Origin: a virus | Lineage: Duplodnaviria > Heunggongvirae > Uroviricota > Caudoviricetes | IMG/VR virus record: IMGVR_UViG_2526164666_000034 | DNA: 31,448 nucleotides | Reading direction: 5' to 3' (one strand) | In this document: in pieces, positions 21,944-25,759 of the stretch | Layout of the letters: the number at the start of each line of letters is the position of its first letter | Position numbering within the stretch: position 1 is the first letter of the stretch | The notes under the pieces: generated by a model | Told to the model about the DNA's origin: nothing | The model's input: the letters and a program-made list of their open reading frames with translations, nothing else | Database searches by the model: none | Position numbers and translations under genes: made by a program

Positions 21944-22129
21944 TTACTTAATTATGTAATTCATACCCGAACGCTCTGTTGACAGCCTTCTTCTGCAGGC
22001 TTCAATAACCCACGCTGAAAAGTTACCGGAACCTTTATGTTCAAGGGCGATATTGATCTGTTCAATCATGTGATTGGGGAAACGGATATTGCGGGTTGTG
22101 GTTCTGCGGGTCCGGTTTTTCGATGACAT
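21944..22129 (-). CDS. YlcI-like small prophage protein
   Basis: 61-aa protein MSSKNRTRRTTTRNIRFPN.MIEQINIALE.KGSGNFSAWVIEACRRRL.. resembles DLP12 YlcI as recalled; AAGGAAA RBS; opposite strand to flanking late genes. Confidence 0.55.
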   Translation of the reverse strand: MSSKNRTRRTTTRNIRFPNHMIEQINIALEHKGSGNFSAWVIEACRRRLSTERSGMNYIIK

Positions 22130-22170
22130 ATTTATTTCCTTTACTGATTGCCATATGACGGGGATTTTAC

Positions 22171-22536
22171 ATGGCTGAGCTTCGTACACTCCAGAGCAGA
22201 ATCAAAACACTGAATACCCGACGGGTGAATATTCTGAAGGGTGAACAGCGTCGTGTCAGTGGCAGTGCACGTGTTTCCCTCAAGCGTCATATCTGGCTCA
22301 GGGATGCCGGGCAGTGCTGTCTCTGTGGTCGTGTGGTTGACCTCTGTGACAGTGAACTCGATCACCGAATTGCACTTCAGTTCGGTGGTGGTAATGAGGA
22401 GACGAATCTCTGGACGCTCTGTACCGAATGCCATCGACAAAAGTCTGCTCGTGAAGCGGCGGGTGGTATGCCGGACCCGACGCTGCCGGAGGTGTCCGGA
22501 GGTAGTGGCAGAGCGGACGACATCATCGGACTGTAA
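22171..22536 (+). CDS. HNH endonuclease (terminase-associated)
   Basis: 121-aa protein with C.LCGR...DHRIAL..GG.NEETNLWTLCTECHRQK (HNH motif with Cys pairs), located just upstream of terS. Confidence 0.8.
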   Translation: MAELRTLQSRIKTLNTRRVNILKGEQRRVSGSARVSLKRHIWLRDAGQCCLCGRVVDLCDSELDHRIALQFGGGNEETNLWTLCTECHRQKSAREAAGGMPDPTLPEVSGGSGRADDIIGL

Positions 22537-22628
22537 CCCGAGCGGGGGGGTATCATCCGGCGTAAAAAACGATCGCTCCGGACACCGCGCCCCCTCTCAC
22601 GCAGAGAAAAAATTCCCGTTTCAGGGCA

Positions 22629-22750
22629 GTTAACATGTTAACTGGCTGTCCGGGCATTTTTGCGGTTTTTATCTTTATTATTCAGTTTGTTGTGCGGAAA
22701 AAATGTTAACAGGCTTTTTCAGCAAATGTTAACCAGGCAGCAGTTAACAT
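22629..22750. repeat. Four ATGTTAAC motifs, including a 14-bp palindrome GTTAACATGTTAAC, upstream of terS (candidate cos/pac or operator)
   Basis: Motif at 22629-22642 (palindrome), 22703-22710, 22726-22733 and inverted at 22743-22750. Confidence 0.5.
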
Positions 22751-22757
22751 TTGCGGC

Positions 22758-23303
22758 ATGAGACGCCGGGAAAAATGGGCTGAACCATACCCGGCTGAGT
22801 GCGTTCTGGACCCGGGAGGAGGCTGTGCTGACAACGCAAAAACGAAAAATTTGCGCTGGCGCTCATGTCCGGGAAAAAACAAAACAGCGTCAGCCATTGC
22901 CGCCGGTTATTCGGCGAAGACCGCCAGGGTTAAAGGCTCGCAGCTGGCAAAAGATCCGGAGGTGCTTGCGTTTATAGCCCGTAAACAATGCGAGACGGTG
23001 GAGGTGGATGAGGTTCCTGTTTACCGGCAGAAAAAATCAGAGCAGGAGGATAAACCCCGTCGCCGTGAGGCGGCTGCAATACCACAGCCGGACGAAAACA
23101 ATCCGGAGATGCCACCGTCCGCGGTGATGTCTCCTGGTATTGAATATATGGAGGATGGTCTTCCCGATCCGGTGAAAGCGATGGGGCGTCTTCTGGTGGA
23201 GAACATTAATACCGACCCCAGGCTGGCGCTGGATGCGGCTTATAAGCTGGCGCAGTTCACGCACCATAAAAAGGGGATGCCGGTAAAAATCGGCAAAAGG
23301 TGA
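22758..23303 (+). CDS. Terminase small subunit
   Basis: 181-aa ORF immediately upstream of the large terminase gene; N-terminal part has a helix-turn-helix-like stretch (..SAIAAGYSAKTARVKGSQLAKDPEV..); preceded by the repeat cluster. Confidence 0.65.
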   Translation: MRRREKWAEPYPAECVLDPGGGCADNAKTKNLRWRSCPGKNKTASAIAAGYSAKTARVKGSQLAKDPEVLAFIARKQCETVEVDEVPVYRQKKSEQEDKPRRREAAAIPQPDENNPEMPPSAVMSPGIEYMEDGLPDPVKAMGRLLVENINTDPRLALDAAYKLAQFTHHKKGMPVKIGKR

Positions 23304-23383
23304 CGCGGCGAAAAAGCGGCTAACCGTTTTGCGGTGCCACCACCACCCCGCCTGGTGGTGAATAATGATAATGAGGGCAACGG

Positions 23384-25045
23384 ATGATACCTGTGTGGAG
23401 CACGGCCTGCCCGGACTGGGCAGAGCGCCTGAAAAAGGGGCTGTCGATTATTCCGGCTCCGATTTATCCGGACCAGGCTGCACATGCACTGGCGATTTTT
23501 AAACAACTGCGAATTGTGGATGCACCTGGTAGCCCGACATTCGGGGAGTCCTGTGCACCGTGGGTGTTTGACCTGGTGGCGGCCCTGTTTGGCTCCTACG
23601 ATGCGCAGACCGGTGTTCGCCATATCAAGGAAGTGTTTATCCTTATCCCCAAGAAAAACTCGAAGTCCACGCTGGCTGCGGGGATCATGATGACGGCGCT
23701 GTTACTGAACTGGCGGCAGGCGGCGGGCTACACCATTCTGGCCCCGACCGTGGAGGTGGCGGCTAACGCCTTCAACCCTGCCAGGGATATGGTACGACGG
23801 GACGATGATCTGGATGACCTCTGTCAGGTGCAGACCCATATCCGGACCATCACCCATCGGGTGACGGACACCACCCTGAAGGTGGTGGCAGCCGATCCGA
23901 ATACGGTGTCCGGTATCAAGTCCGTGGGGACACTGATTGATGAACTGTGGCTGTTTGGCAAGCAGTACAAGGCGGAAGACATGCTACGTGAAGCCATCGG
24001 CGGGCTTGCCTCCCGTCCGGAAGGGTTTGTGGTGTATACGACCACCCAGTCGAATGAACCGCCCGCCGGGGTGTTCAGACAGAAACTGCAGTATGCCCGG
24101 GATGTCCGTGACGGCAAAATTCATGATCCGCACTTTCTGCCGGTGATATTTGAACACCCTCCTGAAATGGTGGAAAGCGGGGCTAACCTGCTGATGGAAA
24201 ACCTCGCCATGGTCAATCCGAATCTCGGCTATTCAGTGGATGAGGCCTTTCTGTACCGGGAGTACCGTAAAGCCCGGGAAGCCGGTGAAGAGACATTCCG
24301 GGGGTTCATGTCAAAACACGCCAATGTGGAAATTGGTCTTGCCCTGCGCTCTGACCGCTGGGCGGGGGCTGATTTCTGGGAAGAGCAGGGCCGTTGTATC
24401 AGCCTGGACGATATCCTGCGTCGTGCTGATGTGGTGACGGTGGGGATTGACGGCGGAGGGCTGGATGATCTGCTGGGGATGTATGTGACTGGGCGTGGCC
24501 GGGAGACCCGCGAATGGCTGGGCTGGGGCCATGCCTGGGCGCATGAAACCGCGGTGGTCCGACGGAAGAGCGAGGCGTCCCGGTTTCAGGATCTTGTTGC
24601 CTGTGGAGATATGACCATTGTCCGGCGTGTCGGGGATGACACGGCGGAAGTGGCGGAATATGTGCGTCGCATTCATGAGGCTGAGTTACTGGACCATATC
24701 GGTATTGACCCGTCAGGGGTGGGGCAGATTCTGGATTCACTGGCGGAAGCCGGGATCCCCGACGGAATTGTGGTGGGGATAAGCCAGGGCTGGAAACTGG
24801 GCGGGGCCATTAAAACCACCGAGCGCAAACTGGCTGAAGGGGTGCTGGTGCATGGTGACCAGCCCCTGATGGCCTGGTGTGTCGGCAATGCCCGGGTGGA
24901 GCCTAAAGGTAACGCCATTCTTATCACCAAACAGGCCAGTGGACGGGGAAAAATTGACCCGCTGATGGCGCTGTTCAATGCGGTCTCCCTGATGTCCCTT
25001 AACCCGGAACCGAAAAAGAAAGAATATGCGGTTTTTTTCATATAA
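23384..25045 (+). CDS. Terminase large subunit
   Basis: 553-aa ORF; N-terminal ATPase-like region with Walker-A-like ..IPKKNSKSTLAAG.. and a C-terminal nuclease-like region including ..GRGKIDPLMALFNA.. Confidence 0.85.
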   Translation: MIPVWSTACPDWAERLKKGLSIIPAPIYPDQAAHALAIFKQLRIVDAPGSPTFGESCAPWVFDLVAALFGSYDAQTGVRHIKEVFILIPKKNSKSTLAAGIMMTALLLNWRQAAGYTILAPTVEVAANAFNPARDMVRRDDDLDDLCQVQTHIRTITHRVTDTTLKVVAADPNTVSGIKSVGTLIDELWLFGKQYKAEDMLREAIGGLASRPEGFVVYTTTQSNEPPAGVFRQKLQYARDVRDGKIHDPHFLPVIFEHPPEMVESGANLLMENLAMVNPNLGYSVDEAFLYREYRKAREAGEETFRGFMSKHANVEIGLALRSDRWAGADFWEEQGRCISLDDILRRADVVTVGIDGGGLDDLLGMYVTGRGRETREWLGWGHAWAHETAVVRRKSEASRFQDLVACGDMTIVRRVGDDTAEVAEYVRRIHEAELLDHIGIDPSGVGQILDSLAEAGIPDGIVVGISQGWKLGGAIKTTERKLAEGVLVHGDQPLMAWCVGNARVEPKGNAILITKQASGRGKIDPLMALFNAVSLMSLNPEPKKKEYAVFFI

Positions 25046-25108: not shown

Positions 25109-25759
25109 GTGACTCTTAAACGGGCCTGTTCCCTGCTGACGGTGAAATCCTTCAGTGAGGATGAACGGGTGATCACCGGGATTGCGTCAACGCCTTCTCC
25201 GGATCGGGATGGTGACATCCTGGAGCCGGAGGGCGCGGAGTTTGGCAGTGCGATACCGTTTCTCTGGCAGCATGACCATTCCCGCCCGGTGGGGCAGTGT
25301 ACGGTGCGCCGGGTCAGCGAAGGGCTGGAAATCACGGCAACACTGGTGAAGCCCGTACCGGATATGCCGTCGCAACTGGCTGCCCGGCTGGATGAGGTCT
25401 GGGCGGCCATTAAGACCGGGCTGGTCAGGGGGCTGTCCGTGGGCTTCCGTCCCCATGAATACACCTTTCTGGACGGAGGCGGACTGCATTTTCTGCGCTG
25501 GGAACTGATGGAGGTGTCTGCCGTCACCGTGCCCGCGAATGCGGAATGCACCATCCGGACCATTAAATCTTACGACCGCCCGTTTTCTGCCGCGTCCGGC
25601 AACCGGAAACCGGTGGTGAAAATCGCATCTTCTGCCGGCGCTGCGGCACAGTCAACAACCGTTTTTCATAAGGAAAAGACCATAATGAATATTGGCGAAC
25701 AGATTAAAAGTTTTGAAAACAAGCGTGCAGCGCTGGCAGCCTCCCTTGAGAGGTCATGA
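25109..25759 (+). CDS. Prohead maturation protease (HK97 gp4 / peptidase S78 family)
   Basis: GTG start with AGGAGG RBS; ..FLWQHD.., ..GLSVGF.., ..EVSAVTVPANAEC.. motifs are typical of S78 proteases. The last ~24 codons (MNIGEQIKSFENKRAALAASLERS) look like the capsid N-terminus. Confidence 0.8.
   Translation: MTLKRACSLLTVKSFSEDERVITGIASTPSPDRDGDILEPEGAEFGSAIPFLWQHDHSRPVGQCTVRRVSEGLEITATLVKPVPDMPSQLAARLDEVWAAIKTGLVRGLSVGFRPHEYTFLDGGGLHFLRWELMEVSAVTVPANAECTIRTIKSYDRPFSAASGNRKPVVKIASSAGAAAQSTTVFHKEKTIMNIGEQIKSFENKRAALAASLERS

What the first reader, a model, noticed from the sequence alone, without database searches (positions are those of the whole stretch)
22629..22750. Cluster of four ATGTTAAC motifs, including a 14-bp palindrome, immediately upstream of terS
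The motif occurs at 22629-22642 (as the palindrome GTTAACATGTTAAC), 22703-22710, 22726-22733 and inverted at 22743-22750, within 125 bp ending at the terS start. The position and the mixed direct/inverted arrangement are typical of terminase small-subunit recognition sites.
Basis: partly seen in the sequence, partly recalled or inferred. Interest (0 to 1): 0.45.

Follow-up and report, generated by a model that had tools for sequence, protein, structure and literature searches.

The report
Terminase recognition repeats in a cos site
The repeated ATGTTAAC words lie just inside the end of the packaged phage DNA and are most likely the marks by which the phage's small terminase recognises its own genome; this is an ordinary kind of feature, but it has not been described for this very common family of E. 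coli (Shiga-toxin) prophages.

Summary
The motif cluster is real: all five strand-specific ATGTTAAC hits in the 31-kb window lie in 22629-22750, where about one is expected. The conserved start is GTG 22825, so the cluster ends 75 nt upstream.

The window is the HNH-terS-terL packaging module of BP-4795/2851-type lambdoid prophages. A near-identical phage, Lys8385Vzw, has PhageTerm-mapped 3' cohesive ends. Its virion left end corresponds to window 22596, with the 10-nt overhang at 22586-22595. The motifs therefore sit at +34 to +155 of the end packaged first, where lambda cosB and the HK97 TerS site lie.

Comparative evidence supports TerS recognition:
- 0 of 38 motif columns vary in 65 family variants, against 75 of 288 intergenic columns overall.
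- A terS-less satellite island keeps the cos core and all copies at the same spacing, while its spacers diverge.
- Satellites encoding a TerS with a changed DNA-binding domain keep the core but carry GTTACAC repeats instead.
- An Acinetobacter relative with mapped ends has GTTAAA repeats.
- The first repeat always starts at +33/+34.

In most genera ATGTTAAC is the terS start itself (Met-Leu-Thr). Binding has not been shown experimentally.

This is a new member of a known kind, of moderate interest.

The parts
22171..22536 (+). HNH endonuclease gene, the accessory nuclease of HK97-type cos terminases
   Evidence: Pfam PF01844 HNH, E=7.5e-7. Homologs lie upstream of the cos core in all phage-type relatives and are absent from the satellites.
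22544..22550 (.). G-run (G7 here, G6-G12 in relatives), a conserved upstream element of the cos site
   Evidence: Its end lies exactly 45 nt before +1 in 7 of 7 versions, including Acinetobacter phage fEg-Aba01. HK97 has a G9 run 42 nt before its right end. Its role is unknown.
22580..22595 (.). cosN: GGACAC followed by the 10-nt 3' cohesive-end sequence CGCGCCCCCT (22586-22595)
   Evidence: The Lys8385Vzw record ends with ...GGACACCGCCCCCCCT, and PhageTerm gave 3' cohesive ends CGCCCCCCCT (PMC7946995). fEg-Aba01 has CGCCCCCCAT at the collinear position (PMC7354433).
22596..22628 (.). Conserved left-end leader CTCACGCAGAGAAAAAATTCCCGTTTCAGGGCA (+1 to +33), including an A-tract
   Evidence: The first base of the Lys8385Vzw virion record corresponds to window 22596. 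The stretch is nearly invariant in the family and conserved across genera.
22629..22642 (.). Primary repeat pair: the palindrome GTTAACATGTTAAC (+34 to +47). The ATG at 22635 is the relic of the ancestral terS start codon.
   Evidence: In about 20 other-genus relatives the collinear GT[A/T]AAC-ATGTTAAC contains the terS start ATG-TTA-ACa. A first repeat starts at +33/+34 in every version.
22643..22702 (.). 60-bp A/T-rich spacer with T-tracts and an IHF-like match ATTCAGTTTGTTG (22680-22692)
   Evidence: The spacer is exactly 60 nt in the window, L178 and the island despite sequence divergence. The IHF consensus is matched with 1 mismatch, and about 0.1 such matches are expected by chance in 60 nt. 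This evidence is weak.
22703..22710 (+). Repeat copy B (ATGTTAAC, +108 to +115)
   Evidence: It is invariant in 65 variants and kept in the island and in L178.
22726..22733 (+). Repeat copy C (ATGTTAAC, +131 to +138), left arm of the 11-bp inverted repeat CAAATGTTAAC/GTTAACATTTG
22743..22750 (-). Repeat copy D (GTTAACAT, +148 to +155), right arm of the inverted repeat. Similarity to the satellite island ends just after it.
22815..22822 (+). Shine-Dalgarno sequence GGAGGAGG of the present terS
   Evidence: Read directly from the sequence. It is conserved in relatives.
22825..23387 (+). terS (Terminase_2 family), GTG start, reading frame broken in this window by homopolymer indels
   Evidence: Pfam PF03592. 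Alignment to BP-4795, 2851 and 569R3. The best genome matches are 99.2-99.4% identical and annotate an intact gene.
23384..25045 (+). terL (HK97-type large terminase)
   Evidence: Pfam PF03354 and PF20441. It is 52-60% identical to the TerL of Pseudomonas, Burkholderia and Acinetobacter cos phages.

Best explanation
The ATGTTAAC/GTTAAC cluster is the small-terminase recognition part (the functional equivalent of cosB) of an HK97-type, HNH-dependent cos site.

Shown:
- In a near-identical phage the terminase cuts at 22586-22595, leaving a 10-nt 3' overhang.
- The cluster occupies +34 to +155 of the left genome end, the side next to terS.
- The copies are under strong purifying selection.
- The cluster travels together with the cos core as a portable module.
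- The repeat word changes when the TerS N-terminal domain changes.

Inferred:
- The N-terminal helix-turn-helix domains of an oligomeric TerS (Terminase_2 family) bind the GTTAAC half-sites.
- The palindromic pair at +34/+42 is the primary, universal site. It sets the register that places TerL and HNH on cosN 34 bp upstream.
- The 60-bp A/T-rich spacer bends, perhaps with IHF, so that the three distal copies (+110, +133, +148) contact the same TerS assembly and increase affinity.
- Packaging then proceeds rightwards into terS and terL.

In most genera only the primary pair lies upstream, and it overlaps the terS start codon (ATG-TTA-AC = Met-Leu-Thr). In the E. coli family about 185 bp carrying the extra copies now separates that relic start from a new SD plus GTG start.
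For: Position:
- The Lys8385Vzw virion record starts at window 22596 and ends in GGACACCGCCCCCCCT, and PhageTerm gave 3' cohesive ends.
- The collinear site in Acinetobacter phage fEg-Aba01 was confirmed by PhageTerm and by a heat/cool gel assay.
- HK97 TerS binds at +15 to +29 and its terS starts at +50.

Constraint:
- 0 of 38 motif columns vary, against 75 of 288 intergenic columns, in 65 distinct sequences. Hypergeometric P = 4e-6; block-permutation P = 1.6e-4 to 3.6e-4.

Portability:
- The E. coli FUJ80154 island has no terS, terL or HNH. It keeps the G-run, an identical 35-nt core and all copies with gaps 8/68/24/15, at 80% overall identity. Similarity stops right after copy D. This island end is present in 29 genomes.

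Covariation:
- The cos core is the same, but the repeats are GTTAAC with TerS ...TARVKGSQL (window, L178, about 20 genera).
- They are AAAGTTACAC with the satellite TerS types ...TARVKGWQL (L175-177, L179-180).
- They are AAGTTAAA with the fEg-Aba01 TerS ...TASAAGARL.
- Unbiased k-mer counts return these words as the most repeated.

Geometry:
- The first repeat starts at +33/+34 in all versions.

TerS family:
- TerS matches Pfam Terminase_2, with weak similarity to the SF6 TerS HTH domain.

Codon usage:
- High-GC Pseudomonas and Burkholderia relatives keep the rare TTA codon within GTTAAT-GGC-(G/T)TTAAC at the terS start.
Against:
- Covariation rests on three repeat classes and few independent lineages.
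- The satellites differ from the phages in many genes besides TerS.
- Most relatives manage with the primary pair alone upstream of terS, so copies B-D may be accessory or serve another purpose.
- The IHF-like match is weak: one mismatch here, two mismatches in L178 and at the collinear position in the island, and about 0.1 expected by chance.
- Synonymous invariance of terS codons 2-3 is not unique, because codons 6, 12, 13 and 15 are invariant too. An A/T-rich start region also favours translation initiation.
- HK97, the only structurally studied relative of this terminase class, uses a single non-repeated site and an unrelated TerS.
Confidence: 0.78

Rival explanations
1. The repeats are binding sites for a protein other than TerS that acts at cos. 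Candidates are the HNH endonuclease, TerL, the neighbouring DUF3950 ribbon-helix-helix-like protein (21944-22189, minus strand), or a host nucleoid protein.
For: HNH accompanies the core in all phage loci. A DUF3950/YlcI-YnfO gene lies next to HNH here and is also annotated in the FUJ80154 island. RHH proteins typically bind short repeated or inverted motifs (general knowledge). No experiment assigns the repeats to TerS.
Against: By tblastn, DUF3950 is found only in close E. coli relatives. It is absent within 2.5 kb of the roughly 20 other-genus relatives that keep the +34/+42 pair. Satellites with the altered GTTACAC repeats encode no HNH or TerL but do encode a TerS with an altered N-terminal domain. 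The satellite without a TerS keeps the phage-type repeats.
Confidence: 0.1
2. The copies are neutral relics of duplication and decay of the terS 5' end (ATG-TTA-AC = Met-Leu-Thr), with no function of their own.
For: In most genera ATGTTAAC is the terS start. The present start GTG-CTG-AC is a diverged version of the same word. The insert aligns collinearly with the terS 5' region of minimal relatives (z up to 7.8). Copies C/D resemble the DNA encoding NV(Y/N)TPAVN within terS of the minimal relatives.
Against: The collinearity signal disappears when the motif copies are masked (z 0.3-2.7). Relics would decay, yet the copies are invariant while their surroundings vary. They are kept at fixed spacing in the diverged island and in L178. 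An origin by duplication does not exclude present function.
Confidence: 0.05
3. The copies form a leftward sigma-70 promoter, or act at RNA level on terS expression through the palindrome and the C/D hairpin.
For: There is a minus-strand promoter-like match built from copies C and B: TTAACA, 18 nt, TG-n-TAACAT, 9 of 12 matches. The minimum-free-energy fold contains hairpins at the palindrome and at C/D.
Against: In the island the same module has no terS downstream, and a leftward transcript would be antisense to the capsid gene. The fold z-score is only -1.8. There is no terminator-like site and no Rfam match. A promoter model does not explain the fixed +34 register relative to the cut or the covariation with TerS.
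Confidence: 0.04

Closest known systems
Bacteriophage lambda cosB (R3-I1-R2-R1 between cosN and Nu1)
   Same: It is an array of short repeated TerS-binding elements in mixed orientation, on the terS side of the nick site, interrupted by an A/T-rich bendable segment. terS starts about 190-230 bp from the cut. Specificity resides in cosB, while cosN is shared with satellites (PMC6739421).
   Different: Lambda TerS (gpNu1) is a winged-HTH protein of another family. Lambda ends are 12-nt 5' overhangs and need no HNH protein. The R elements are 16 bp long and unrelated in sequence. The IHF site here is only a weak consensus match.
HK97 cos site and its TerS recognition site (+15 to +29; PMC11331095)
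   Same: Same terminase class: TerL of the PF03354/PF20441 families, an HNH accessory nuclease upstream, 10-nt 3' overhangs, and a G-run about 42-45 nt before the cut. The recognition site lies just inside the left end, upstream of terS.
   Different: HK97 gp1 is unrelated in sequence to this TerS (BLASTP E=1.2). It reads one 15-bp site through the ring channel, with no repeats. The cos sequences are not alignable.
SPP1/SF6 G1P (Terminase_2 TerS) binding to repeated boxes in pacL/pacR
   Same: Same TerS Pfam family, with an N-terminal HTH domain. Short repeated boxes are recognised, and some lie inside the terS gene itself (from my own knowledge of the SPP1 literature; not checked here).
   Different: Those phages package by the headful (pac) mechanism without defined cohesive ends, and their boxes flank the cut on both sides. 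Here the ends are defined and GTTAAC copies lie only downstream of the cut.
Satellite cos strategies: SaPIbov5-type cos SaPIs, and E. coli PICI EcCICFT073 with Rpp
   Same: The FUJ80154 island copies the helper cos, as cos-type SaPIs do. The P0059/P0053 satellites keep cosN but change the repeat word, as EcCICFT073 keeps cosN/cosQ and swaps cosB (PMC6739421).
   Different: Here the specificity swap goes with a satellite-encoded TerS homolog rather than an Rpp adaptor. The helper-satellite relationship is inferred from sequence only.

Membership tests
HK97-type (HNH-dependent, 3'-overhang) cos site | Defined cohesive ends with a 10-nt 3' overhang | tested here: met
   Not measured on this DNA. 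Lys8385Vzw (231 of the first 232 nt identical) has PhageTerm 3' cohesive ends CGCCCCCCCT, and its record termini map to window 22595/22596.
HK97-type (HNH-dependent, 3'-overhang) cos site | HNH endonuclease gene directly upstream of cos, and terS-terL directly downstream | tested here: met
   HNH at 22171-22536, terS from 22825, terL at 23384-25045.
HK97-type (HNH-dependent, 3'-overhang) cos site | Large terminase of the HK97 family | tested here: met
   PF03354 and PF20441. TerL is 52% identical to that of fEg-Aba01, whose paper reports HK97-type ends.
HK97-type (HNH-dependent, 3'-overhang) cos site | TerS homologous to HK97 gp1, reading a single site at +15 to +29 | tested here: not met
   BLASTP of BP-4795 TerS against HK97 gp1 gives E=1.2. 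This TerS is Terminase_2, and the candidate sites are repeats from +34 onward.
lambda-type cosB | Several copies of a TerS-binding element between cosN and terS | tested here: inconclusive
   Five conserved GTTAAC copies lie at +34 to +155. Binding by TerS cannot be tested with these tools.
lambda-type cosB | An IHF site between the repeat elements | tested here: inconclusive
   ATTCAGTTTGTTG (22680-22692) matches WATCARNNNNTTR with one mismatch, and about 0.1 such matches are expected in 60 nt. A one-mismatch match recurs in L179 but not at the collinear position in L178 or the island. The 60-nt spacer length is conserved.
lambda-type cosB | gpNu1-family TerS and 12-nt 5' cohesive ends | tested here: not met
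   TerS is Pfam Terminase_2, not the Nu1 family. The ends are 10-nt 3' overhangs.
Terminase_2 (SPP1/SF6 G1P-like) TerS recognition region | TerS with the PF03592 N-terminal HTH DNA-binding domain | tested here: met
   PF03592 E=5.4e-7, above the gathering score. There are weak PDB hits to the SF6 TerS DNA-binding domain, residues 10-53.
Terminase_2 (SPP1/SF6 G1P-like) TerS recognition region | Headful (pac) packaging with imprecise ends | tested here: not met
   Defined cohesive ends are found in close and distant relatives.

The most novel reading that the evidence does not exclude
In this terminase lineage, packaging specificity is a small exchangeable code. A universal cosN core is cut by TerL and HNH. 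An array of 6-7-bp words (GTTAAC, GTTACAC or GTTAAA) begins at +34 and is read by the TerS N-terminal domain. E. coli satellites exploit it in two ways. One type copies the helper's whole cos, and the other pairs a re-coded array with its own TerS chimera, which has a helper-like C-terminus and an altered DNA-binding domain. The ancestral primary site doubles as the terS start codon, so protein sequence (Met-Leu-Thr, and NV(Y/N)TPAVN in the linker) is partly dictated by the protein's own DNA recognition site. The E. coli family escaped this overlap by moving the sites out of the gene.
Probability: 0.45. Interest if true: 0.65.

Novelty: new member of a known kind. Interest (0 to 1): 0.45.

Why it matters
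This cos type is present in 1,288 of 5,426 complete E. coli genomes, with up to 7 copies per genome. It serves Stx1a, Stx2a and Stx2c converting phages such as BP-4795, 2851 and Lys8385Vzw. Knowing which bases mark DNA for packaging helps to predict three things: which prophages, defective prophages and satellites in a multi-lysogenic STEC strain can be packaged by one another's terminases; how Stx and effector genes are mobilised; and how to build cos-plasmid or transduction tools for these phages. The natural repeat-word swap in satellites offers a ready-made experimental system for TerS specificity in a Terminase_2/HNH cos system, for which no recognition site has been defined.

Tried and rejected
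1. ATG 22758 as the terS start: rejected. It is a frameshift artefact of homopolymer indels.
2. Relic small ORF from ATG 22635 (MLTGCPGIFAVFIFIIQFVVRKKC, stop inside copy B): rejected as a conserved gene. The island version stops after 4 codons, and two family variants carry an indel just before the stop.
3. RNA element: no Rfam match at E<=1, the fold z-score is -1.8, and there is no terminator-like site.
4. Direct sequence similarity to the HK97 cos: none beyond the G-run and the layout.
5. The insert as a decayed, shortened copy of the terS 5' region: the chained alignment is significant only because of the motif copies themselves, so this is inconclusive.
6. The island capsid fusion as a homolog of the helper capsid (Ccm-like): no BLASTP similarity.
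7. Record boundaries of the Burkholderia phages as mapped ends: they vary between records (terS matches begin 25-59 nt from the record end), so they were not used as evidence.
9. Literature search for the 14-mer: no paper holds it. One literature search failed on syntax.

Full report
**1. The observation**

ATGTTAAC occurs five times, counting both strands, and every occurrence in the 31,448-bp window lies in 22629-22750. The hits are at 22629-36 (-), 22635-42 (+), 22703-10 (+), 22726-33 (+) and 22743-50 (-). The expected number is 0.98, and none of 100 dinucleotide-preserving shuffles reaches five. The first two hits form the perfect palindrome GTTAACATGTTAAC. The core GTTAAC is itself palindromic, so "direct" and "inverted" copies differ only in which side carries the AT.

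The stated relation to terS is wrong. The ORF from ATG 22758 exists only because this window differs from all relatives by homopolymer-length changes. In BP-4795, phage 2851 and others, terS is a 564-nt gene. It starts at the GTG equivalent to window 22825, behind GGAGGAGG, and ends overlapping the terL start. No complete E. coli genome shares the window's exact terS, and the closest copies (99.2-99.4%) are annotated as intact.

**2. Context**

The gene order is a DUF3950 gene (minus strand), HNH endonuclease (22171-22536), a 288-nt intergenic region, terS (Terminase_2), terL (HK97-type), prohead protease and major capsid. The region is 95-99% identical to BP-4795, 2851, YYZ-2008, 1717 and many Stx1a/Stx2a/Stx2c prophages. 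It occurs in 1,288 of 5,426 complete E. coli genomes, with up to seven copies per genome.

**3. Where the DNA is cut**

Stx1 phage Lys8385Vzw was induced from E. coli O103 RM8385, a strain with a 100% match to this intergenic region. PhageTerm showed it to be a cos phage with 3' cohesive ends and cos sequence CGCCCCCCCT (PMC7946995). Its record ends in ...GGACACCGCCCCCCCT and begins with CTCACGCAGAG..., which is window 22596. The first 232 nt differ from the window at one base.

I had predicted the same position from Acinetobacter phage fEg-Aba01 (TerL 52% identical). Its 10-nt 3' end CGCCCCCCAT was confirmed by PhageTerm and a heat/cool gel assay (PMC7354433), and its junction aligns without gaps to the window core.

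In window coordinates this gives:
- cohesive end: 22586-22595
- +1: 22596
- palindrome: +34 to +47
- copy B: +108
- copy C: +131
- copy D: +148
- terS GTG: +230

The cluster therefore lies just inside the genome end next to terS. Lambda cosB occupies the same position, as does the HK97 TerS site at +15 to +29 (PMC11331095).

**4. What relatives show**

(a) Minimal relatives. In about 20 prophages of other enterobacterial genera (TerS 40-49% identical) and in Salmonella phage FSL SP-016, the core runs straight into ATGTTAAC. The core reads G-run, about 30 nt, GGACACCGCGCCCCCTCTCACGCACAGAAAAAATTCCC, GGAGGG, GT[A/T]AAC. In these relatives ATGTTAAC is the terS start ATG-TTA-ACa, encoding Met-Leu-Thr. 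The E. coli family keeps that word at the same distance from the cut, but its Shine-Dalgarno sequence has decayed. About 185 bp carrying three more copies follows before a new SD and the start GTG-CTG-AC.

(b) Constraint. Among 65 distinct family sequences, none of the 38 motif columns varies, while 75 of 288 intergenic columns do. The hypergeometric P is 4e-6, and block-permutation P is 1.6e-4 to 3.6e-4.

(c) Portability. A ~9.5-kb satellite-like island lies between cspD and clpS in E. coli FUJ80154. It carries an integrase, an HTH regulator, Icd-like and RepA-helicase genes and a protease/capsid fusion, but no terS, terL or HNH. It ends with the G-run, an identical 35-nt core and every motif copy, with gaps of 8/68/24/15. 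Its spacers have diverged to 80% overall identity, and similarity stops just after copy D. This island end is found in 29 genomes.

(d) A closer TerS relative. L178 (TerS 68% identical, same N-terminal domain type) has the same architecture with diverged spacers. It has a 22-bp perfect palindrome and one extra copy.

(e) Covariation. Two satellite lineages encode their own TerS (P0059 and P0053). The C-terminal half resembles the phage TerS, while the N-terminal domain is altered (...KGWQL and FADAL instead of ...KGSQL and FALAL). These satellites keep the cos core but carry AAAGTTACAC repeats, two copies in one lineage and at least six in the other, including an inverted pair. fEg-Aba01 (...ASAAGARL) carries three AAGTTAAA repeats. 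Unbiased k-mer counts return these words as the most repeated in each region.

(f) Geometry. The G-run ends 45 nt before +1 in all seven versions. The first repeat starts at +33/+34 in all of them, whatever the word.

**5. Mechanism**

The best-supported reading is that the repeats are the TerS recognition elements of the cos site.

These steps are shown:
- the position of the cut, in a near-identical phage
- purifying selection on the copies
- co-transfer of the cluster with the core
- the change of repeat word with the TerS domain

These steps are inferred:
- the HTH domains of an oligomeric Terminase_2 TerS bind the GTTAAC half-sites
- the primary pair at +34/+42 fixes the register that places TerL and HNH on cosN
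- the 60-bp A/T-rich spacer bends, so that the distal copies reach the same TerS assembly

The spacer length is conserved, but its IHF-like match is weak.

**6. Rivals**

DUF3950 is absent from the other-genus relatives that keep the primary pair. HNH and TerL are not encoded by the satellites that carry the altered word.
- Neutral duplication relics. This is contradicted by the invariance and the conserved spacing. The collinearity of the insert with the terS 5' region disappears when the motifs are masked.
- A promoter or an RNA structure. One minus-strand promoter-like match is built from copies C and B. The fold z-score is -1.8, and there is no Rfam or terminator match. The module also persists where there is no downstream terS.

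**7. Comparison with known systems**

The site works like lambda cosB, but it is not a member of that family. The TerS family differs, the ends are 3' rather than 5' overhangs, and an HNH protein is involved.

It is an HK97-type cos by TerL, HNH, end structure and G-run. Its TerS, however, is unrelated to HK97 gp1, and the candidate recognition site is a repeat array rather than a single 15-bp site.

The TerS family is that of SPP1/SF6 G1P, which reads repeated boxes, but those phages package by the headful mechanism.

The cohesive-end sequence of this family is published (PMC7946995). No paper in the library contains the 14-mer palindrome, and I found no description of the repeats.

**8. Verdict**

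This is a new member of a known kind of element, and its interest is moderate. The surrounding satellite biology and the overlap between a recognition site and the start codon of the protein that reads it are the more unusual aspects.

Noticed in passing
window 22825-23387 and 25109-26886: Homopolymer-length differences from all relatives break the terS frame: A5 instead of A4 near 22853, A6 instead of A5 near 22884, and three A-runs one base short near 23270-23315. They apparently also split the protease-capsid gene into two ORFs (25109-25759 and 25756-26886), whereas relatives annotate one ~1.9-kb gene. This is either sequencing error or a defective prophage.
   Followed up: partly
L171/L174 (E. 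coli FUJ80154, NZ_AP024687.1 3250868-3260576): A ~9.5-kb satellite-like island lies between cspD and clpS. It carries an integrase, an HTH regulator, YlcI/YnfO, Icd-like, DUF4222 and RepA-helicase genes and a prohead protease/MCP fusion. It has no terminase or HNH, and it ends in a full copy of this cos core plus the repeat cluster. Its capsid fusion is unrelated by BLASTP to the window phage's capsid. The island end is present in 29 of 5,426 genomes.
   Followed up: partly
L175-L177 (terS P0059) and L179-L180 (terS P0053): E. coli satellite-like elements (a D5/RepA primase or AlpA, small ORFs, a capsid-like gene) encode their own TerS. Its C-terminal half resembles the BP-4795-type TerS and its N-terminal domain is altered. 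Each is preceded by the same cos core but by AAAGTTACAC repeats. This looks like a SaPI-style packaging-specificity switch in a Gram-negative cos system.
   Followed up: partly
window 22544-22550, and the equivalent position in all relatives: A G-run of variable length (G6-G12) ends exactly 45 nt before the first base of the left end in seven diverged versions. HK97 has a G9 run 42 nt before its right end. Its function is unknown, and it may be a termination-side (cosQ-like) or HNH/TerL element.
   Followed up: partly
L004, L007-L022, terS codons ~69-76 (+244 to +268 from the cut): In the minimal relatives the only conserved stretch of the variable TerS linker, N-V-(Y/N)-T-P-A-V-N, is encoded by AATGTT(T/A)AT-ACCCCAGCG-GTAAACA. 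This is an inverted pair with a 9-nt gap that closely resembles the window's copies C/D (AATGTTAAC-CAGGCAGCA-GTTAACA). It may be a second TerS site inside terS that constrains the protein sequence.
   Followed up: partly
L181 (PPompW_132418, LC567822.1 15712-17170) and L173 (E. coli TB354): In PPompW prophages an IS110-family ISEc20 abuts the G-run and replaces everything between the Q/tRNA region and cos, so the lysis genes and HNH are lost. In TB354 an IS1 removes everything upstream of about window 22770, including cosN and all repeats. Both are defective packaging regions.
   Followed up: partly
window 4418-4436: A second tight GTTAAC cluster, GTTAAC-CA-GTTAAC-AA-TTAAC, has the same 8-bp periodicity as the palindrome. 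It lies inside overlapping ORFs in the early region. It was not examined further.
   Followed up: no
window 22635-22709: A relic small ORF starts at the ancestral terS ATG and encodes a hydrophobic 24-aa peptide (MLTGCPGIFAVFIFIIQFVVRKKC). Its stop codon lies inside repeat copy B. The reading frame is kept in close relatives but is broken after 4 codons in the island copy.
   Followed up: yes
window 21944-22189 (-) and 22171-22536 (+): The DUF3950 (YlcI/YnfO family, RHH-like) ORF as listed and the HNH gene are divergently oriented, and their 5' ends overlap by 19 nt. Relatives annotate a shorter DUF3950 CDS (228 nt) that does not overlap HNH. A gene annotated as YlcI/YnfO family is also present in the satellite island.
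   Followed up: partly
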